5,801 nucleotides of DNA from a virus (IMGVR_UViG_3300029126_000078:1-5801), one strand, 5' to 3'; shown: positions 1,019 through 4,738, counted from the stretch's first letter. Notes: generated from the sequence alone by a model not told the origin. Made by a program: numbers and translations.

Positions 1019-1037
1019 TAGATAAATTTTAGATAAC

Positions 1038-1063
1038 AAAAAACCCATTTATGTAAACGGGTT
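1038..1063 (-). terminator. Rho-independent terminator (minus-strand orientation) ending the int/cargo transcript
   Basis: Minus-strand RNA reads 5'-AACCCGUUUACAUAAAUGGGUUUUUU-3': a 7-8 bp stem (CCCGUUU/AAAUGGG with one G-U pair), 4-nt loop, then a U6 tract. It lies about 60 bp downstream of the 1122 stop. On the plus strand the stem has a mismatch and no T-tract, so it is a weaker terminator for rcdA. Confidence 0.5.
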
Positions 1064-1067
1064 AATG

Positions 1068-1100
1068 AAAACAATAAGTTAGATTAAAACAATAAGTTAG
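1068..1100. repeat. Tandem 15-bp direct repeat AAAACAATAAGTTAG x2, candidate Int arm-type or att-proximal site
   Basis: Exact copies at 1068..1082 and 1086..1100, 3 bp apart, followed by GTTGGTGGTCAGTGGTGGTT (GGTGGT repeated). Located between the cargo gene stop and the host junction. Confidence 0.4.
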
Positions 1101-1121
1101 GTTGGTGGTCAGTGGTGGTTA

Positions 1122-1844
1122 TTACGGGGTAATGCCAACCGCTGCCGCCACTTTGTCGCCACTAGTGCTTTGTTTTTCGAATTCATCTAAGGCTCTTTCA
1201 ACATCAGAAAGATACTCTTTGAATGAGTTCAAGATCATGCTTAACGAGCCCTCCATAAATAGGACCTGTTTTCCATCTTTTTTAAAAAAATCAGGATATT
1301 TTTCTATAAGTTCAATAATGCTTTTAATATTTTGCCCATCGTTTTCTAAGTATTTTGCATCATTATGCGCACAACTGTTTCTTAATTTTGTTATTTTTTT
1401 GATATTCGAATAGTGGGATGTTGACTTCATCCCTATCATTTTTTTGATAAATAGATGGCTCCTCTCAAATCCACTTCCTTTGAGATCTGAAACATTTATA
1501 GGAGAATGATGTCTATTAGCAAAGTTGTTACAGAATTTTTCTATTTCGTGCTCAAAAATTCCGAATATAGTTAAGAATACTGACCTGCGGATAATACTTG
1601 GGTAGTATTCTAAAAACATTTCATCGAGATCTAGCGATGAGCTGGTGAGTCCCATGTAATGATCAATTGACTGATATACACCATCTTCCGGAGATATTTC
1701 AATTATATATTCTTCAGGTCCTTTGTCTTTATATTCTGCTATACCCTTAGCGATTGATGATTCGCTATGAGTGATTAACGTCTCGATAATATCAAATGTT
1801 AAGGAGAAGTCGAATATTGGGAATTGAAACAAAAACTTAACCAT
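1122..1844 (-). CDS. AT-rich cargo gene; hypothetical protein with Rx4H (HEPN-like) motif, candidate abortive-infection/defence nuclease
   Basis: Track ORF 1122..1877. I prefer the ATG at 1844 (MVKFLFQFP...) because the integrase stop TAA is followed directly by AGGT and a 6-nt spacer (TAAAGGTTCAAGC-ATG), whereas the 1877 ATG has no RBS and lies inside int. The protein contains ...KKITKLRNSCAHNDAKY... (R-N-x3-H) in the C-terminal third. The gene is visibly AT-rich compared with flanking rcdA and int. Confidence 0.6.
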   Translation of the reverse strand: MVKFLFQFPIFDFSLTFDIIETLITHSESSIAKGIAEYKDKGPEEYIIEISPEDGVYQSIDHYMGLTSSSLDLDEMFLEYYPSIIRRSVFLTIFGIFEHEIEKFCNNFANRHHSPINVSDLKGSGFERSHLFIKKMIGMKSTSHYSNIKKITKLRNSCAHNDAKYLENDGQNIKSIIELIEKYPDFFKKDGKQVLFMEGSLSMILNSFKEYLSDVERALDEFEKQSTSGDKVAAAVGITP

Positions 1845-1854
1845 GCTTGAACCT

Positions 1855-2886
1855 TTAAGAATCTGATTTAGTAACATCCAAAGTTGCTAGTGGATTGAAA
1901 CGAAGAGCTGTCTCTAAGTGATCAGGTGATAGATGAGCATAACGCATAGTCATTTTTATGTCGTGATGTCCGAGGATTTTTTGCAAAGCAAGGATGTTTC
2001 CACCCGACATCATGAAATGCGCCGCAAACGTATGACGCAGAACGTGTGTAAGTTGACCGCGAGGGAGCACGATAGACGTTTTTTCCATCACGGATAAAAA
2101 TTGAAAATAGCAGTCTGTGAAGAAATTGAACCCATCAAGCGCCATGATCTCTTCATAAAGCTCTTTACTGATAGGGATGCTTCTGTTTTTCTTCCCCTTC
2201 GTTCTTACAAAGGTAATTCGGTATTTGGTCACCTGTGATCGGGTTAGGTTTATTGCTTCTCGCCAGCGTGCGCCTGTGCTTAAGCATATCTTGACTACCA
2301 GTGCCAGAATTGGGTCCTGACGTTTGCAATCATCCAGCAGTTCAACAATCTGCTCATGGGTAAGCCATGCCATCTCTTTTTCTGCGATGGTGAATTTTCG
2401 CATGTTCTCCAGTGGGTTTGGATACGACCATTCGCCCAGGCGGGATAGTTCGCTAAAAACACTACTTAGATAGCTTTGCTCCAGGTTAATGGTGACCGGG
2501 CTGGCCCCTTTCTTCCATTTCTCGCTGAAGTAGATCTCACCTGTCAGTCGTTTATCTCGATAATGGGCAAACATTTTAGATGTGAGATCGGTTGCAAGGG
2601 GATTGCCCAGAGCGTCAACCATCAGCAGCAATTTGTCATAGACATGCTGCCCAGCAGTCAGAGATTTACCATGTAGTTTGAACCATAGCTCAACCACGTC
2701 TTTCAGGGTTCGACGATCTACTGATTCGCCCAGCCAGGGCTTTGCTTCGGTTTCTTCCATCGTGTGACGCTCAAAAGCCAGTGCTTCGCCTTTGGTGGCG
2801 AATTGTTTACGCACACGACGCCCACTACGTCCGGCGGGGTAACATTCGCAAAGCCATTTTCCTGTGGTGAGTTTTCGTACTGCCAT
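1855..2886 (-). CDS. int: Phage tyrosine integrase, P2 Int-like
   Basis: Track ORF 1855..2964. The start at 2886 (MAVRKLTTGKW...) is preceded by GGAGGG with 8-nt spacing, and the recalled P2 Int N-terminus (MAIKKL...) aligns here. The C-terminal region has ...LSTGARWREA..., ...HVLRHTFAAHFMMSGGNILALQKILGHHDIKMTMRYAHL..., consistent with the tyrosine-recombinase catalytic core (R, H-x-x-R, Y). Confidence 0.9.
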   Translation of the reverse strand: MAVRKLTTGKWLCECYPAGRSGRRVRKQFATKGEALAFERHTMEETEAKPWLGESVDRRTLKDVVELWFKLHGKSLTAGQHVYDKLLLMVDALGNPLATDLTSKMFAHYRDKRLTGEIYFSEKWKKGASPVTINLEQSYLSSVFSELSRLGEWSYPNPLENMRKFTIAEKEMAWLTHEQIVELLDDCKRQDPILALVVKICLSTGARWREAINLTRSQVTKYRITFVRTKGKKNRSIPISKELYEEIMALDGFNFFTDCYFQFLSVMEKTSIVLPRGQLTHVLRHTFAAHFMMSGGNILALQKILGHHDIKMTMRYAHLSPDHLETALRFNPLATLDVTKSDS

Positions 2887-2910
2887 AAAAAATGCCCTCC
2901 AATAGAGAGC

Positions 2911-2939
2911 ATTTTTACTGTATGTATAACCAGTGTCAA
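2911..2939 (-). promoter_or_regulatory. Candidate sigma70 promoter for int (minus strand)
   Basis: On the minus strand: consensus -35 TTGACA (plus 2934..2939), 16-nt spacer, -10 TAAAAA (plus 2912..2917; AAAAAT with a 17-nt spacer). This is about 25 nt upstream of the int RBS. An inverted repeat ATGTATG(2939..2945)/CATACAT(2958..2964) lies immediately upstream. Confidence 0.35.
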
Positions 2940-3072
2940 TGTATGAAATCTTGCGACCATACATCTCACTGAAGCCATAATGAAGTTGGCTATTTTTTGC
3001 TATGTGAGTATGTGACTTTTGCGGTTAGCCTGCGGCTCATTGTTATATTAGGCGCAGATATAAAAGCAAAAA

Positions 3073-3264
3073 TTATCGCGAGTTTTTAGTACAGATTTTT
3101 TTTGATTTACTAATAGTTCCATCATTGCAAACGAACTTTCCATCGGAGGTACAGTGAGAGACACCTCCCTTTTTCCCAGAACAAGGATAATTTTTAGCAT
3201 AGGTAGTTAGTGGGTTTAATAACAAAGAGCATGATAAAACCACAAAAAATACCTTACCAAGCAT
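3073..3264 (-). CDS. Small secreted Cys-containing peptide (63 aa precursor), hypothetical; cargo gene within the cI-int operon
   Basis: ATG at 3264 preceded by GGGAGG with 5-nt spacing, starting 15 bp after the cI stop. N-terminus [23 protein letters not shown] looks like a Sec signal peptide (basic n-region, hydrophobic core, TYA cleavage-type site). Predicted mature part is about 40 aa, Lys-rich, with 4 Cys. The gene is AT-rich. Confidence 0.55.
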
Positions 3265-3279
3265 AGTTTCCTCCCGGTA

Positions 3280-3849
3280 TTACCTAACGTACTTAATTGT
3301 CAAACTTATAATTTTTCCAATTATTTCAACATCTTCTATCTTGCACTCGAAGGTTCTGTTTCCACCTTCAACGAAGATTCTTCCACCGGGTAAACGAGTA
3401 ATGTCGCGGATTGTTATTTCGCCATCAATACTTATTACCCATTTACCATCACGTATATCATCAAATTCTTTATCACAAATAAATTCAGAATTGTTATCTG
3501 TGATGACAAAAGGTTTTTTAAACGTAGAGGGTAGAAATCCCTTATCAAAAATATAAAAACCGTCTTCACGCAAGGCACCATCAGATAATACATATTTAGC
3601 AACTTCCATCGTATTTGTATTACCTGAAGTTTGCTTTGAACCATGTCCAGTTGTGAGCCAATTAAGCGAGGTGCCCGTTTCAAGGGCGCACTGGATTACC
3701 CATTCTGCTGGGAATGAGTCACGCATGTAGCGTGTAGCGAGTGTACTTTTAGAGATTCCTAAATGATCGCACAACGCCTGTCGAGTTTTGAATCCATAAG
3801 CTTCTACCATGCGCTCTATAGCGCCTCGTCCGCCTTTCTCCAAATTCAT
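3280..3849 (-). CDS. cI: Immunity repressor CI, phage 186 type
   Basis: Track ORF begins at a GTG (3855). The ATG at 3849 is preceded by GGAGTGACC (SD with 5-nt spacing) and gives MNLEKGGRGAIERMVEAYGFKTRQALCDHLGISKSTLATRYMRDSFPAEWVIQCALETGTSLNWLTTGHG.... The N-terminal HTH and the CALETG..L.WLLTG.G block match my recollection of 186 CI. It lies directly left of the switch region, transcribed leftward. Confidence 0.85.
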   Translation of the reverse strand: MNLEKGGRGAIERMVEAYGFKTRQALCDHLGISKSTLATRYMRDSFPAEWVIQCALETGTSLNWLTTGHGSKQTSGNTNTMEVAKYVLSDGALREDGFYIFDKGFLPSTFKKPFVITDNNSEFICDKEFDDIRDGKWVISIDGEITIRDITRLPGGRIFVEGGNRTFECKIEDVEIIGKIISLTIKYVR

Positions 3850-3860
3850 GGTCACTCCAA

Positions 3861-3914
3861 GTGAACTTTTATCTTGACGATTTCATAGTGCGATCGTATG
3901 TTTATGGTGTTCAC
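3861..3914. promoter_or_regulatory. Candidate CI operator half-sites flanking pR (inverted GTGAAC / GTTCAC)
   Basis: GTGAAC at 3861..3866 (just upstream of the pR -35) and its reverse complement GTTCAC at 3909..3914 (around pR +1). A related GGTCAC sits at 3850..3855. The placement suits repressor occlusion of pR, but the 186 operator consensus is not recalled with certainty. Confidence 0.3.
3874..3902 (+). promoter_or_regulatory. Candidate lytic promoter pR (rightward)
   Basis: -35 TTGACG (3874..3879), 17-nt spacer, -10 TATGTT (3897..3902). Positioned to transcribe apl and cII. Confidence 0.5.
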
Positions 3915-3964: not shown

Positions 3965-3993
3965 ATGTTGCATCATGAGACCTAACATTTCAA
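3965..3993 (-). promoter_or_regulatory. Candidate lysogenic promoter pL (leftward), face-to-face with pR
   Basis: On the minus strand: -35 TTGAAA (plus 3988..3993), 17-nt spacer, weak -10 CAACAT (plus 3965..3970). The predicted start is about 50-60 bp from the pR start and convergent with it, overlapping the 5' end of apl. This fits the known 186 face-to-face pR/pL arrangement, but the -10 is poor. Confidence 0.3.
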
Positions 3994-4196
3994 TCACTCT
4001 TACCACGCCTCATGTGACTATTGAACGCTATAGCGAGCTGACAGGACTGTCCATCGATACCATCAATGACATGTTGGCTGATGGACGCCTTATCCGTCAC
4101 CGTTTGCGCAAAGATAAAAAACGCGAAAAAGTGATGATCAACATAGCAGCCATGACCGTTGATGCGCTTTCAGAATGCAATCTAAACCTTAATTAG
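3975..4196 (+). CDS. apl: Apl/Cox-like small HTH excisionase and switch regulator (73 aa)
   Basis: First gene rightward of the switch. ATG at 3975 with GAGGAA upstream at a rather long spacing. [21 protein letters not shown] is an HTH-like segment typical of excisionase/Cox/Apl proteins. Position matches 186 apl / P2 cox. Confidence 0.6.
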
Positions 4197-4228
4197 TTCG
4201 ATTCTGAAATACATCAGAGGCATTGACC

Positions 4229-4738
4229 ATGTTTGATTACCAAGTTTCCAAACATCCACATTTTGATGAAGCCTGTCGTGCATTTGCACTGCGCCACAAT
4301 CTGGTGCAACTGGCAGAACGTGCAGGCATGAATGTGCAGATTCTGCGGAACAAGCTGAACCCAGCTCAGCCTCATTTATTAACCGCACCAGAAATCTGGC
4401 TGCTTACCGATCTGACTGAAGATTCAACGCTGGTAGATGGTTTTCTGGCACAGATTCACTGCCTGCCATGTGTACCGATTAATGAGGTTGCAAAAGAGAA
4501 ACTGCCGCATTACGTCATGAGCGCAACTGCAGAGATCGGACGTGTTGCAGCAGGTGCGGTATCTGGTGATGTAAAAACTAGTGCCGGTCGTCGTGATGCT
4601 ATCAGCAGCATTAACTCTGTAACACGACTGATGGCGCTGGCTGCTGTTTCATTGCAGGCCCGTTTACAGGCTAATCCTGCAATGGCGAGTGCAGTTGATA
4701 CCGTGACTGGCCTCGGTGCTTCATTCGGTTTGCTGTGA
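4229..4738 (+). CDS. cII: CII lysogeny-establishment activator, phage 186 type (169 aa)
   Basis: Track ORF starts at a TTG (4223). The ATG at 4229 is preceded by AGAGG with 8-nt spacing and gives [45 protein letters not shown]...[24 protein letters not shown]..., close to the 186 CII sequence as I recall it. Length 169 aa matches. Confidence 0.85.

What the first reader, a model, noticed from the sequence alone, without database searches (positions are those of the whole stretch)
1038..3855. Compact four-gene leftward lysogenic operon cI - secreted peptide - int - HEPN-motif gene ending at an intrinsic terminator
Seen in sequence: all four genes are on the minus strand with short or coupled junctions (cI stop to peptide start 15 bp; int stop to cargo start 10 bp with an embedded RBS), and the only convincing terminator lies after the last gene (1038..1063). 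A consensus-like internal promoter sits upstream of int. Two of the four genes are non-core cargo. Inference: the prophage uses the repressor transcript to drive accessory genes in the lysogen.
Basis: partly seen in the sequence, partly recalled or inferred. Interest (0 to 1): 0.5.

Follow-up and report, generated by a model that had tools for sequence, protein, structure and literature searches.

The report
186-type lysogeny operon carrying two cargo genes
This is the repressor-integrase operon of a phage-186-like prophage inserted in the E. coli rybB small-RNA gene, carrying two swappable passenger genes (a small secreted protein and a probable HEPN RNase) in places already known as cargo hotspots, so the layout is ordinary and only the passengers are uncharacterised.

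Summary
Four co-directional minus-strand genes are present: cI 3280-3849, a YdcA-family secreted 63-aa protein 3073-3264, int 1855-2886, and a 240-aa HEPN-like gene 1122-1844. The junctions are 15, 186 and 10 nt, and the best minus-strand terminator lies after the last gene.

The layout is that of phage 186 itself (pL/pE -> cI -> int -> orf69 -> attP). The window has 186's exact CII-binding repeat, and -35/-10 hexamers at the positions of 186's pR and pL.

Both extra genes sit in variable slots. Relatives carry KAP NTPases or other genes between cI and int. Between int and att they carry nothing, an 89-aa gene, a 110-aa gene or a Panacea pair. Both slots are published P2-family hotspots.

- The prophage sits in rybB. 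The "operon terminator" is a phage-made 5' arm paired with the att core, which is the 3' half of the RybB terminator.
- The HEPN gene ends in the last 13 codons of the ancestral int, which hold Int arm-type sites.
- The int-proximal promoter is conserved across relatives, so int and the HEPN gene may not depend on the repressor transcript.

No transcript data were available. Verdict: a new member of a known kind, of modest interest.

The parts
1035..1048 (.). att core / crossover segment, AACAAAAAACCCAT. It is identical to attB, which is the 3' end of the rybB sRNA gene (3' arm of the terminator stem plus the U-tract). Host sequence lies to the left and phage sequence to the right.
   Evidence: In K-12, rybB lies 20 nt after the rcdA stop on the minus strand. 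Identity between K-12 and the window ends at 1048. attR in strain CRE10 carries the phage-type variant AGGCAAC and regenerates a full RybB (Rfam 105 bits).
1036..1063 (-). Intrinsic terminator after the last gene. The hairpin AACCCGUUU-ACAU-AAAUGGGUU is followed by U6. The 5' arm and loop are phage DNA; 7 of the 9 nt of the 3' arm and the U-run are the att core.
   Evidence: dG -9, z -3.0. The same hairpin follows int directly in cargo-free E2348/69 and in Klebsiella phage 4LV2017. In PEC414 a G-to-A change turns a G-U pair into an A-U pair.
1065..1100 (.). Two tandem 18-nt repeats, AT(G/T)AAAACAATAAGTTAG, in the attP arm. They are candidate binding sites for IHF, Apl/Cox or Int (inferred).
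   Evidence: They are conserved downstream of the HEPN gene in a 78%-identical homologue's locus (L022), in Serratia and partly in E. ludwigii.
1122..1163 (-). Relic of the ancestral int 3' end. It now supplies the last 13 codons and the stop codon of the HEPN gene. It contains two Int arm-type sites, TGCCGCCACT (1143-1152) and TGTCGCCACT (1154-1163).
   Evidence: The E2348/69 int ends ...LATLPSGDKVAAAVGITP* and the cargo ends ...SGDKVAAAVGITP*. The repeats come (2 found, 0.06 expected). They resemble the 186 arm-type consensus YAYCGCCAYTY. The stretch 1100-1163 is found in about 1120 E. coli genomes.
1164..1878 (-). Inserted cargo cassette. It holds a new 7-codon int tail (DVTKSDS) with its stop, a 10-nt spacer and codons 1-227 of the HEPN gene. 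GC content is 33%, against 46.5% for int.
   Evidence: Other cassettes (89 aa, 110 aa, Panacea pair) meet the att-side boundary within about 5 nt of the same point.
1122..1844 (-). HEPN-like cargo gene, 240 aa, a probable metal-independent RNase. R155-N156-x3-H160 and E98 are invariant.
1855..2886 (-). Tyrosine integrase, 343 aa, 55% identical to 186 Int.
2911..2940 (-). Conserved int-proximal promoter-like element, (A)TTGACA-17-AAAAAT ('Pint').
3073..3264 (-). YdcA-family small secreted protein, 63 aa. It has a Sec-type signal peptide, a predicted cleavage after TYA and 4 Cys in the mature part. GC content is 35%.
   Evidence: NF007463 scores 116 bits against a cut-off of 93. Also phrog_6000, PF27300 and the hydropathy profile.
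3280..3849 (-). CI immunity repressor, 189 aa.
   Evidence: Phage_CI_repr plus Phage_CI_C. It is 32% identical to 186 CI, E 8e-38.
3874..3902 (+). pR-like early lytic promoter, TTGACG-17-TATGTT.
   Evidence: It aligns with the annotated 186 pR.
3965..3993 (-). Inferred pL (lysogeny maintenance promoter): -35 TTGAAA at 3993-3988 and -10 CAACAT at 3970-3965. It faces pR.
   Evidence: Its position relative to the apl start codon is the same as for the annotated 186 pL hexamers. This is inferred, not measured.
3975..4196 (+). Apl/Cox-like excisionase-repressor, the first gene of the rightward operon.
   Evidence: phrog_575, E 6e-31.
4194..4256 (-). Inferred pE (CII-activated establishment promoter). 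Its CII operator is ATGTTTG-N13-CAAACAT at 4229-4255.
   Evidence: The half-sites and spacing are identical to the annotated 186 CII site. Chance expectation is 0.00 matches.
4229..4738 (+). CII (CP76 family).

Best explanation
The window is the left (attL) end of a phage-186-like (Peduoviridae) prophage integrated into the 3' end of the E. coli sRNA gene rybB, next to rcdA.

The leftward genes form the family's lysogenic operon. A CII-activated pE promoter and a weak pL promoter facing pR are expected to send transcripts through cI. The YdcA-family secreted protein is translated 15 nt downstream of the cI stop.

After a 186-nt spacer comes a conserved sigma-70-type promoter, then int. Ten nt after int comes a HEPN-like gene. 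It has no room for its own promoter and is therefore co-transcribed with int.

Transcription then crosses the attP arm and stops at a hairpin. The 5' arm of that hairpin is phage DNA. Its 3' arm and U-tract are the att core, a copy of the RybB terminator's 3' half.

Both extra genes are AT-rich cassettes sitting in two swappable slots, cI-int and int-att. Related prophages fill these slots with other defence-like genes or leave them empty.

The int-att cassettes are all inserted immediately upstream of the Int arm-type sites. Those sites are encoded in the ancestral int tail and must be kept for integration and excision. That is why this HEPN ORF runs into, and ends with, the old int C-terminus.

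The HEPN protein is most likely a latent RNase that acts in the lysogen, as an abortive-infection or anti-phage effector or a related toxin. The secreted peptide is most likely an envelope-acting lysogenic-conversion or exclusion factor.

Shown: gene order, junctions, att anatomy, cassette variability, motif conservation. Inferred: which promoters are active, co-transcription, and the function of both cargo proteins.
For: Operon backbone:
- The genes and junctions are confirmed.
- The 186 record annotates pL/pE -> cI -> int -> Orf69 -> attP. Int is 55% and CI 32% identical to those of 186.
- The CII operator is identical to 186's, and the pR and pL hexamers sit at matching positions.
- The literature states that 186 pE and pL express CI and Int (PMC8538670).

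att anatomy:
- rybB follows rcdA in K-12.
- The core boundary is at 1048.
- A full RybB is regenerated at attR.
- rybB is a published P2-like insertion site (PMC3032704).

Terminator. The same hairpin follows int in cargo-free relatives.

Cassettes:
- The ancestral int tail is reused.
- Arm-type repeats are present and conserved in other genera.
- Slot variants are documented.
- The cargo genes are 33-35% GC against 46-50% for the backbone.
- Both hotspots are published (PMC13586616; PMC9122126).

HEPN:
- R86, E98, R155 and H160 are invariant in 51 sequences that are 18-59% identical to the window protein.
- 11 of 19 members hit HEPN_RiboL-PSP, best E 2.7e-5.
- 34 of 51 hit PADLOC RTasHEPN, best E 6.4e-9.
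- The AlphaFold model (pLDDT 84.7) places the motif at the end of a helix.
- The top Foldseek PDB hits are HEPN toxins.
- The gene is the last, att-proximal gene in P2-like prophages of Serratia, Enterobacter and a metagenome, and in P4-like satellites.
Against: - No transcript, transcription-start or termination data were available, so promoter use and co-transcription are inferred.
- Promoter-like hits in the window are no more frequent than chance.
- The pL -10 hexamer matches only 3 of 6. It is called only from its position relative to 186.
- The terminator is weak (-9 kcal/mol, against -23.3 for RybB's own).
- The window's HEPN protein itself is below every curated threshold (Pfam 17.1 bits against 28.4; PADLOC E >= 0.0045).
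- No defence phenotype is known for either cargo family.
Confidence: 0.72

Rival explanations
1. There are two separate transcription units. pL/pE drive only cI and the YdcA-like gene. int and the HEPN gene are expressed from the conserved int-proximal promoter. On this reading the HEPN cargo rides on an int transcript, not on the repressor transcript.
For: A 186-nt gap separates the peptide gene from int. It holds a perfect -35 TTGACA with a 17-nt spacer and AAAAAT. The element is conserved upstream of int in 10 related loci, whatever gene precedes it. Phage 186, which lacks this spacer, has cI and int overlapping. A stem-loop follows the peptide stop (z -2.1).
Against: No minus-strand terminator-like site was found between the peptide gene and int. 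The stem-loop after the peptide gene has no U-tract, and its stem is broken in the 1297KP relative. Read-through from pL/pE is therefore expected to add to any Pint activity. The two models are not exclusive.
Confidence: 0.4
2. The HEPN gene is a prophage-stabilising or addiction toxin, or a selfish passenger, and not an anti-phage defence effector.
For: HEPN RNases are common toxins of toxin-antitoxin systems, and the top structural matches are MNT-HEPN toxins. Another occupant of the same slot is a Panacea-domain pair, typical of a toxin-antitoxin system.
Against: No antitoxin-like partner gene lies beside it in the window or in most contexts. It sits in slots described as defence hotspots. 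Two thirds of the family match a HEPN model taken from defence-associated reverse-transcriptase systems.
Confidence: 0.2
3. The hairpin at 1042-1063 is only the displaced remnant of the host RybB terminator left at attL. It has no role for the phage operon.
For: The 3' arm and the U-run are identical to the RybB 3' end.
Against: Only about 11-14 nt of rybB remain at attL. The complementary 5' arm and the loop are phage DNA. They are conserved in E. coli, Klebsiella and L022 relatives, and one variant restores a Watson-Crick pair. The hairpin would therefore exist in attP as well.
Confidence: 0.1
4. The two cargo ORFs are silent or decaying AT-rich insertions without function.
For: Their GC content is low (33-35%). 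Only 25 of 5426 E. coli genomes carry the HEPN gene. Truncated copies exist (P0018, P0021).
Against: Full-length HEPN homologues of constant size are spread over many genera, with 2047 cluster representatives at E <= 0.001 and invariant catalytic-type residues. The YdcA-like mature peptide is highly conserved from E. coli to Haemophilus, Moraxella and Acinetobacter phages.
Confidence: 0.05

Closest known systems
Coliphage 186 lysogenic operon (pL/pE -> cI -> int -> orf69 -> attP)
   Same: The repressor family is the same and Int is 55% identical. The gene order and strand match. The CII operator is identical. The pR and pL hexamers sit at matching positions. Apl and CII lie on the other strand. 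A small non-core ORF sits between int and attP.
   Different: In 186, cI and int overlap, with no gene or promoter between them. The att site is in the tRNA gene ileY, not in rybB. Orf69 is unrelated to the HEPN gene and to the 89-aa cargo.
P2-family cargo and defence hotspots: int-att and int-primase in P2-like phages (NAR 2026, PMC13586616), and cI-int in K139-like Vibrio phages (Rousset et al. 2022, PMC9122126)
   Same: The positions are the same, the occupants are swappable, and defence-type domains occur (KAP NTPase, Panacea, HEPN).
   Different: The HEPN family here is not detected by PADLOC at the level of this protein. No paper I could read mentions it.
Lambda cI-rexA-rexB, and exclusion genes in lysogeny modules (K139 glo; Ltp of Streptococcus phage TP-J34)
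   Same: Accessory or exclusion genes are expressed in the lysogen from, or beside, the repressor transcript. Glo is described as a periplasmic protein and as the 'K139 family immunity gene' (PMC4870250). Lambda rexAB being co-transcribed with cI is textbook knowledge.
   Different: No sequence relationship to the YdcA-like peptide was tested or found. That glo lies between cI and int is recalled from Nesper et al. 1999, which I could not open.
HEPN RNases: Pfam RiboL-PSP-HEPN, PADLOC RTasHEPN, MNT-HEPN toxins
   Same: The Rx4H motif with N after R, an invariant upstream glutamate and a helical core are all present. There are family-level HMM matches and weak fold matches.
   Different: It is a stand-alone protein of about 230 aa with an extra N-terminal helix and beta-hairpin. 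It has no neighbouring nucleotidyltransferase, reverse transcriptase or antitoxin. It is below Pfam gathering scores, and distant members have no Pfam hit.
Haemophilus phage HP2/S2 pL operon
   Same: cI is followed at once by a YdcA-like 60-aa secreted protein whose ATG overlaps the cI stop. Then come orf1(S) and int, all downstream of the annotated pL.
   Different: The ORF is not annotated in the HP2 record. There is no HEPN gene after int.

Membership tests
186-type (Peduoviridae) lysogenic operon | A CI repressor of the Phage_CI_repr/Phage_CI_C type is the first leftward gene | tested here: met
   Pfam E 2.8e-33 and 1.1e-28. It is 32% identical to 186 CI.
186-type (Peduoviridae) lysogenic operon | int lies downstream of cI on the same strand and next to att | tested here: met
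   Int is 55% identical to 186 Int. One gene is inserted on each side of int.
186-type (Peduoviridae) lysogenic operon | A CII-activated pE with the inverted repeat ATGTTTG-N13-CAAACAT at the start of cII | tested here: met
   The repeat is identical in the window (4229-4255) and at the annotated 186 CII site.
186-type (Peduoviridae) lysogenic operon | Face-to-face pR and pL promoters between cI and apl | tested here: inconclusive
   pR is found by the scan. pL is only inferred from its position (-35 5/6, -10 3/6).
186-type (Peduoviridae) lysogenic operon | One transcript covers cI through the att-proximal gene | not testable with these tools
   There are no transcript data. No minus-strand terminator-like site was found between the genes.
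HEPN superfamily | An Rx4-6H motif with a polar residue (N, D or H) right after the R | tested here: met
   R155-N156-S-C-A-H160. R155 and H160 are invariant and N156 is at least 90% conserved in 51 diverse members. The definition is from PMC3710099.
HEPN superfamily | A conserved acidic residue in the preceding core helix | tested here: met
   E98 is invariant and lies in helix 73-111 of the model. The exact Ex3[KR] spacing is not kept.
HEPN superfamily | A four-helix up-down core with the motif at the end of helix 3, entering a loop | tested here: inconclusive
HEPN superfamily | A match to a curated HEPN profile | tested here: inconclusive
   The window protein is below threshold (RiboL-PSP 17.1 bits against 28.4). 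At family level, 11 of 19 members hit RiboL-PSP (best E 2.7e-5) and 34 of 51 hit PADLOC RTasHEPN (best E 6.4e-9).
HEPN superfamily | Metal-independent RNase activity | not testable with these tools
   This needs biochemistry.
Known anti-phage defence system (PADLOC catalogue) | A significant match of this protein to a catalogued defence protein | tested here: not met
   The best PADLOC E-value for the window protein is 0.0045-0.0049.
Known anti-phage defence system (PADLOC catalogue) | A location in a described defence hotspot of a mobile element | tested here: met
   The int-att slot of P2-like prophages and the primase-att edge of P4-like satellites. Both are listed in PMC13586616.
Known anti-phage defence system (PADLOC catalogue) | Protection against phage infection | not testable with these tools
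   This needs plaque assays.
YdcA family (NCBIfam NF007463 / PF27300) | A profile match above the curated cut-off | tested here: met
   116.1 bits against a cut-off of 93. Homologues carry PF27300.
YdcA family (NCBIfam NF007463 / PF27300) | An N-terminal signal peptide and a Cys-containing mature domain | tested here: met
   A hydrophobic stretch at residues 5-16 is followed by TYA|KN, and the mature part has 4 Cys. The Cys residues and the core align with the HP2 homologue. No dedicated signal-peptide predictor was available.
Intrinsic (Rho-independent) terminator | A stable stem-loop followed directly by a U-tract | tested here: met
   A 9-bp stem (3 G-C pairs), a 4-nt loop and U6. dG is -9 kcal/mol and z is -3.0. 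It is weaker than the RybB terminator (-23.3).
Intrinsic (Rho-independent) terminator | Termination observed in vivo | not testable with these tools
   This needs Term-seq or 3'-RACE.

The most novel reading that the evidence does not exclude
The 240-aa protein belongs to a large, unannotated family of stand-alone HEPN-like proteins of about 230 aa. The profile search found 2047 cluster representatives at E <= 0.001, and none of 10 distant members sampled had a Pfam hit. [quoted passage not shown] It would be expressed only by read-through from the element's int or primase gene, so its dose would be tied to the lysogenic state. The YdcA-like peptide coupled to cI from E. coli to Haemophilus phages would be a conserved envelope-acting exclusion factor.
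Probability: 0.35. Interest if true: 0.5.

Novelty: new member of a known kind. Interest (0 to 1): 0.3.

Why it matters
The architecture itself teaches nothing new. It is the phage 186 lysogenic operon, and both cargo positions are published hotspots.

Its value is as a pointer to four things:
[quoted passage not shown] It is a reasonable candidate for a new single-gene defence or toxin.
- A tiny secreted protein is repeatedly coupled to the cI repressor in distant P2-family phages. In phage HP2 it is unannotated.
- Cargo cassettes can be squeezed between int and attP without destroying the Int arm-type sites.
- The att core doubles as half of the operon's terminator.

Tried and rejected
- Rfam on the whole window at E <= 1 found nothing. 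Only 11-14 nt of rybB remain at attL. The rybB link came from the K-12 annotation instead.
- The afdb50 fold library was unavailable.
- The profile search against PDB sequences gave only chance hits.
- tblastn of the HEPN protein against 50,697 phage records found nothing.
- Pfam scans of 10 distant family members gave no hits.
- I first read the int promoter as TTGACA-16-TAAAAT (11/12). A pattern search showed this was a miscount. The correct reading is TTGACA-17-AAAAAT (10/12).
- A first conservation pattern had the wrong spacing and matched nothing.
- 186 Orf69 and the 89-aa cargo are unrelated.
- Nesper et al. 1999 on K139 could not be opened. The position of glo is therefore cited from memory only.
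- A promoter for the HEPN gene inside the int 3' end was considered. No candidate was found on the minus strand between 1845 and 2100.
- The promoter-like sites at 1813..1786 and 1729..1702 lie downstream of the cargo start and were dismissed.
- A lipoprotein reading of the peptide (VLSC at residues 9-12) was rejected. The Cys lies too close to the N-terminus, and the homologues lack a lipobox.

Full report
**What is in the window**

The left 1 kb is E. coli chromosome. It holds the end of ybjJ on the minus strand and rcdA at 482-1018 on the plus strand. From about 1049 onward the sequence is the left end of a P2/186-family prophage.

A megablast against 5,426 complete E. coli genomes found the whole window at 98.8-99.9% identity in diverse strains. 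In total 546 genomes hold at least 80% of it. In an E. coli genome 99.9% identical across the window (strain CRE10), RefSeq annotates these genes:
- Minus strand: a hypothetical protein (1122-1844), phage integrase (1855-2886), a 63-aa hypothetical or 'YdcA family' protein (3073-3264), and phage repressor CI (3280-3849).
- Plus strand: a Cox/Apl-like gene, cII, fil, DUF5347, DUF2732 and a TraR/DksA gene.

**Checking the observation**

- 15 nt between the cI stop and the peptide ATG, with a GGAGG ribosome-binding site.
- 186 nt between the peptide stop and the int ATG.
- 10 nt between the int stop and the cargo ATG (TAAAGGTTCAAGCATG).

The cI start is the ATG at 3849. The GTG at 3855 lies inside its GGAG ribosome-binding site.

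The hairpin at 1063..1042 followed by U6 is the best minus-strand terminator-like site in the interval. It folds at -9 kcal/mol with z -3.0, and none of 200 shuffles does as well. The two other minus-strand candidates lie inside int and the cargo gene and fold no better than shuffled sequence.

The promoter upstream of int is TTGACA-17-AAAAAT, matching 10 of 12 positions. I first miscounted it as 11 of 12 and corrected this. On score alone it is unremarkable: the window has 10 promoter-like sites against 11.4 expected.

Its support is conservation. A 28-nt element that includes both hexamers lies just upstream of int in 10 related loci from E. coli, a Klebsiella phage, Serratia and others, whatever gene lies upstream. 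By chance it is expected 0.00 times in the window.

**It is the phage 186 operon**

The GenBank record of phage 186 annotates the following, from right to left:
- pE, activated by CII.
- pL, facing pR.
- cI.
- int, overlapping the cI stop.
- Orf69, 14 nt after int.
- attP, with Int arm-type sites, an IHF footprint and Apl sites.

The window's Int is 55% identical to 186 Int (E 3e-139). Its CI is 32% identical to 186 CI (E 8e-38).

The annotated 186 CII operator, ATGTTTG-N13-CAAACAT at the start of cII, is present with identical half-sites and spacing at 4229-4255. The pR-like promoter at 3874-3902 aligns with 186 pR. Hexamers TTGAAA and CAACAT occupy exactly the positions of the 186 pL -35 and -10 relative to the apl start codon.

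The literature states that 186 pE and pL express CI and integrase from the lysogenic operon (PMC8538670). The 'compact leftward lysogenic operon' is therefore a known architecture with one extra gene on each side of int.

**The terminator and the attachment site**

In K-12 the gene immediately after rcdA is the sRNA gene rybB. It lies on the minus strand, and its 3' end is 20 nt after the rcdA stop. That corresponds to window position 1038.

The window matches K-12 up to ...AACAAAAAACCCAT at 1048 and then diverges. In strain CRE10, which carries the same prophage, the other junction holds a complete RybB (Rfam 105 bits). It is preceded by the phage-type version of the same 27-nt stretch.

So the phage integrates into the 3' end of rybB and regenerates the gene at attR. 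rybB is a published insertion site for P2-like elements (PMC3032704).

Consequently 7 of the 9 nt of the hairpin's 3' arm, and its U-tract, are the att core, which is the 3' half of the RybB terminator. The 5' arm AACCCGTTT and the loop are phage DNA.

The same hairpin follows int directly in relatives without cargo, namely E2348/69 and Klebsiella phage 4LV2017. In PEC414 a G-to-A change converts a G-U pair into an A-U pair. I read this as a phage-built terminator that borrows the core. It is not a mere host remnant.

**The attP arm and why the cargo ORF ends as it does**

Between the hairpin and the cargo stop codon lie two tandem 18-nt repeats (1065-1100). Inside the last 42 nt of the cargo ORF lie TGCCGCCACT and TGTCGCCACT (1143-1163). 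These resemble the 186 Int arm-type consensus YAYCGCCAYTY. Similar pairs lie in the phage arm at attR.

The stretch 1100-1163 occurs in about 1120 E. coli genomes. In most of the 30 records sampled it lies under the 3' end of an annotated integrase.

The cargo-free integrase of E2348/69 ends ...LATLPSGDKVAAAVGITP*. The window's integrase ends ...LATLDVTKSDS*. The window's cargo protein ends ...SGDKVAAAVGITP*.

So a 715-nt cassette of 33% GC (1164-1878) was inserted between the end of the conserved int coding sequence and the arm-type sites. It brought a new short int tail, a stop codon, a 10-nt spacer and the cargo ORF. That ORF reads in frame into the old int tail and uses its stop codon.

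Other cassettes meet the att-side boundary within about 5 nt of the same point. The arm block is conserved downstream of the HEPN gene even in Serratia and Enterobacter, where the ORF stops before it. The simplest reading is that the arm sites are needed in cis and fix the boundary of the slot. This is inferred.

**Both extra genes are swappable cargo**

Occupants of the slot between cI and int:
- The YdcA-like gene: here, BL21-derived C43(DE3), PEC414, C289 and 1297KP.
- KAP P-loop NTPases: E2348/69, TUM3755 and a metagenome contig.
- A 558-aa ATPase: phage 813R9.
- Unrelated genes of 349, 289 or 526 aa: Klebsiella phage 4LV2017, Serratia and E. ludwigii.

Occupants of the slot between int and att:
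- Nothing: E2348/69, 4LV2017 and 813R9.
- The HEPN gene: at least 80% of it is present in only 25 of 5,426 genomes.
- An 89-aa gene: PEC414, C289 and TUM3755.
- A 110-aa gene: C43(DE3).
- A Panacea-domain gene plus a 251-aa partner: 1297KP.

The two cargo genes here are 34-35% GC, against 46.5% for int and about 50% for the rightward genes.

Both positions are already in the literature. [quoted passage not shown] Rousset et al. 2022 noted a hotspot between cI and int in K139-like Vibrio phages (PMC9122126).

**The HEPN-like gene**

The window protein alone gives only sub-threshold HEPN hits: RiboL-PSP at E 0.006, and PADLOC RTasHEPN and HEC-01A at E about 0.005-0.008. Family-level evidence is much better:
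- 40 close relatives in Enterobacterales share an invariant LRNxCxHxD motif.
- A profile search of 1.84 billion representatives found 2047 members at E <= 0.001 and 513 at E <= 1e-10. Most of the 150 best are about 220-240 aa with near full-length matches.
- In 51 diverse members that are 18-59% identical to the window protein, R86, E98, R155 and H160 are invariant and N156 is nearly so. This matches the published HEPN signature: Rx4-6H, a polar residue after the R, and an upstream acidic residue (PMC3710099).
- 11 of 19 members hit Pfam RiboL-PSP-HEPN, best E 2.7e-5.
- 34 of 51 hit PADLOC RTasHEPN, best E 6.4e-9.
- The AlphaFold model (pLDDT 84.7, pTM 0.81) places the motif at the end of helix 145-161, before a loop.

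None of 10 distant members sampled had a Pfam hit. The protein is absent from 50,697 phage records.

Its genomic contexts are consistent:
- It is the last, att-proximal gene after int in P2-like prophages of Serratia, Enterobacter, a metagenome and the rybB site of other genera. In locus L022 the spacing from int is again about 11 nt.
- It is the last gene after the primase in P4-like satellites of Raoultella and Pantoea.

I conclude it is a probable HEPN RNase of an undescribed family, carried as a single gene at the edges of these elements. A defence or abortive-infection role is the most likely function but is untested.

**The secreted peptide**

The 63-aa protein matches the NCBIfam YdcA model above its cut-off (116 bits against 93). 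It also matches phrog_6000 and PF27300. It has a hydrophobic N-terminal stretch, a TYA|KN cleavage-type site and four cysteines.

Its mature part is 73-80% identical to ORFs in Moraxella, Acinetobacter and Haemophilus phages. In Haemophilus phage HP2 there is an unannotated 60-aa homologue. Its ATG overlaps the cI stop codon, downstream of the annotated pL and upstream of orf1(S) and int.

The cI-peptide pairing therefore recurs in distant members of the family. Its function is unknown. By analogy with periplasmic or surface exclusion proteins of lysogeny modules, such as K139 Glo, an envelope-level exclusion or conversion role is the best guess.

**How it most likely works, and what remains open**

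Gene order, junctions, the lack of internal terminators, the shared downstream terminator and homology with 186 all support transcription of the cargo within the lysogenic operon.

The int-HEPN pair must be co-transcribed, because only about 36 nt of cassette precede the HEPN ATG. Whether that transcript starts mainly at pL/pE or at the conserved int-proximal promoter cannot be decided from sequence. The two are not exclusive.

It is also not new in kind: lambda cI-rexAB and 186 cI-int-orf69 are precedents.

**Verdict**

This is a correctly observed, ordinary 186-type lysogenic operon with two cargo cassettes in published hotspots. Its modest interest lies in four things:
- the uncharacterised HEPN family;
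- the recurrent cI-coupled secreted peptide;
- the cassette boundary set by the Int arm-type sites;
- the terminator built on the rybB att core.

Noticed in passing
L023 (Haemophilus phage HP2, AY027935.1) 2520-2702 +: An unannotated 60-aa YdcA-like ORF with a signal peptide. Its ATG overlaps the cI stop codon in the pL operon, and it is 49% identical to the window peptide (E 2e-18). Phage S2 has the same match.
   Followed up: partly
L004 6001-6687, L005, L017 5001-5687: Homologues of the HEPN-like protein (41-43% identical) are the last gene after the primase in P4-like satellites of Raoultella and Pantoea. In L004 and L005 a DUF4238 gene lies directly upstream, which might make a two-gene system there.
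   Followed up: partly
window 1035-1063; L025 6645-6723: The prophage is integrated in the 3' end of the sRNA gene rybB. Only 11-14 nt of rybB remain at attL, and a complete RybB (Rfam 105 bits) is regenerated at attR. RefSeq does not annotate rybB in strain CRE10.
   Followed up: yes
L008 4662-6179; L010 5509-6840; L019 2397-3848: KAP-family P-loop NTPases occupy the cI-int slot in E2348/69, TUM3755 and a metagenome contig. A KAP-domain single-gene system ('Reve') was reported as a tested candidate in PMC13586616.
   Followed up: no
L011 4063-5291: In strain 1297KP the int-att slot holds a Panacea-domain gene plus a 251-aa partner, which looks like a toxin-antitoxin pair.
   Followed up: no
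window 3010-3072 (minus strand): A stable stem-loop lies right after the peptide stop codon. The region folds at -28.9 kcal/mol with z -2.1, but there is no U-tract. One stem position is disrupted in the 1297KP relative, so it is probably not a conserved element.
   Followed up: partly
window 2917-2934 (minus strand): Inside the conserved int-proximal promoter the spacer carries a short inverted repeat (ACTGG...ACAGT here, ACTGT...ACAGT in Serratia). It could be an operator. No binding protein was identified.
   Followed up: no
L025 1-1120: In strain CRE10 the prophage has a frameshifted tail sheath gene and a truncated tail tube gene. At least that copy is probably defective, while its lysogeny module and cargo stay intact.
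   Followed up: no
L002 (Klebsiella phage 4LV2017) 102-1208: The annotated int start (1082) looks too short. The conserved MAVRKLTTGKW start and the promoter element lie about 70-125 nt further upstream.
   Followed up: no
L014 (C43(DE3)/BL21 lineage) 6098-8518: The laboratory B strain carries the same cI-YdcA-int module with a different 110-aa cargo next to att, in a truncated prophage. The retron effector gene lies further right. This is a convenient strain for transcript mapping.
   Followed up: no
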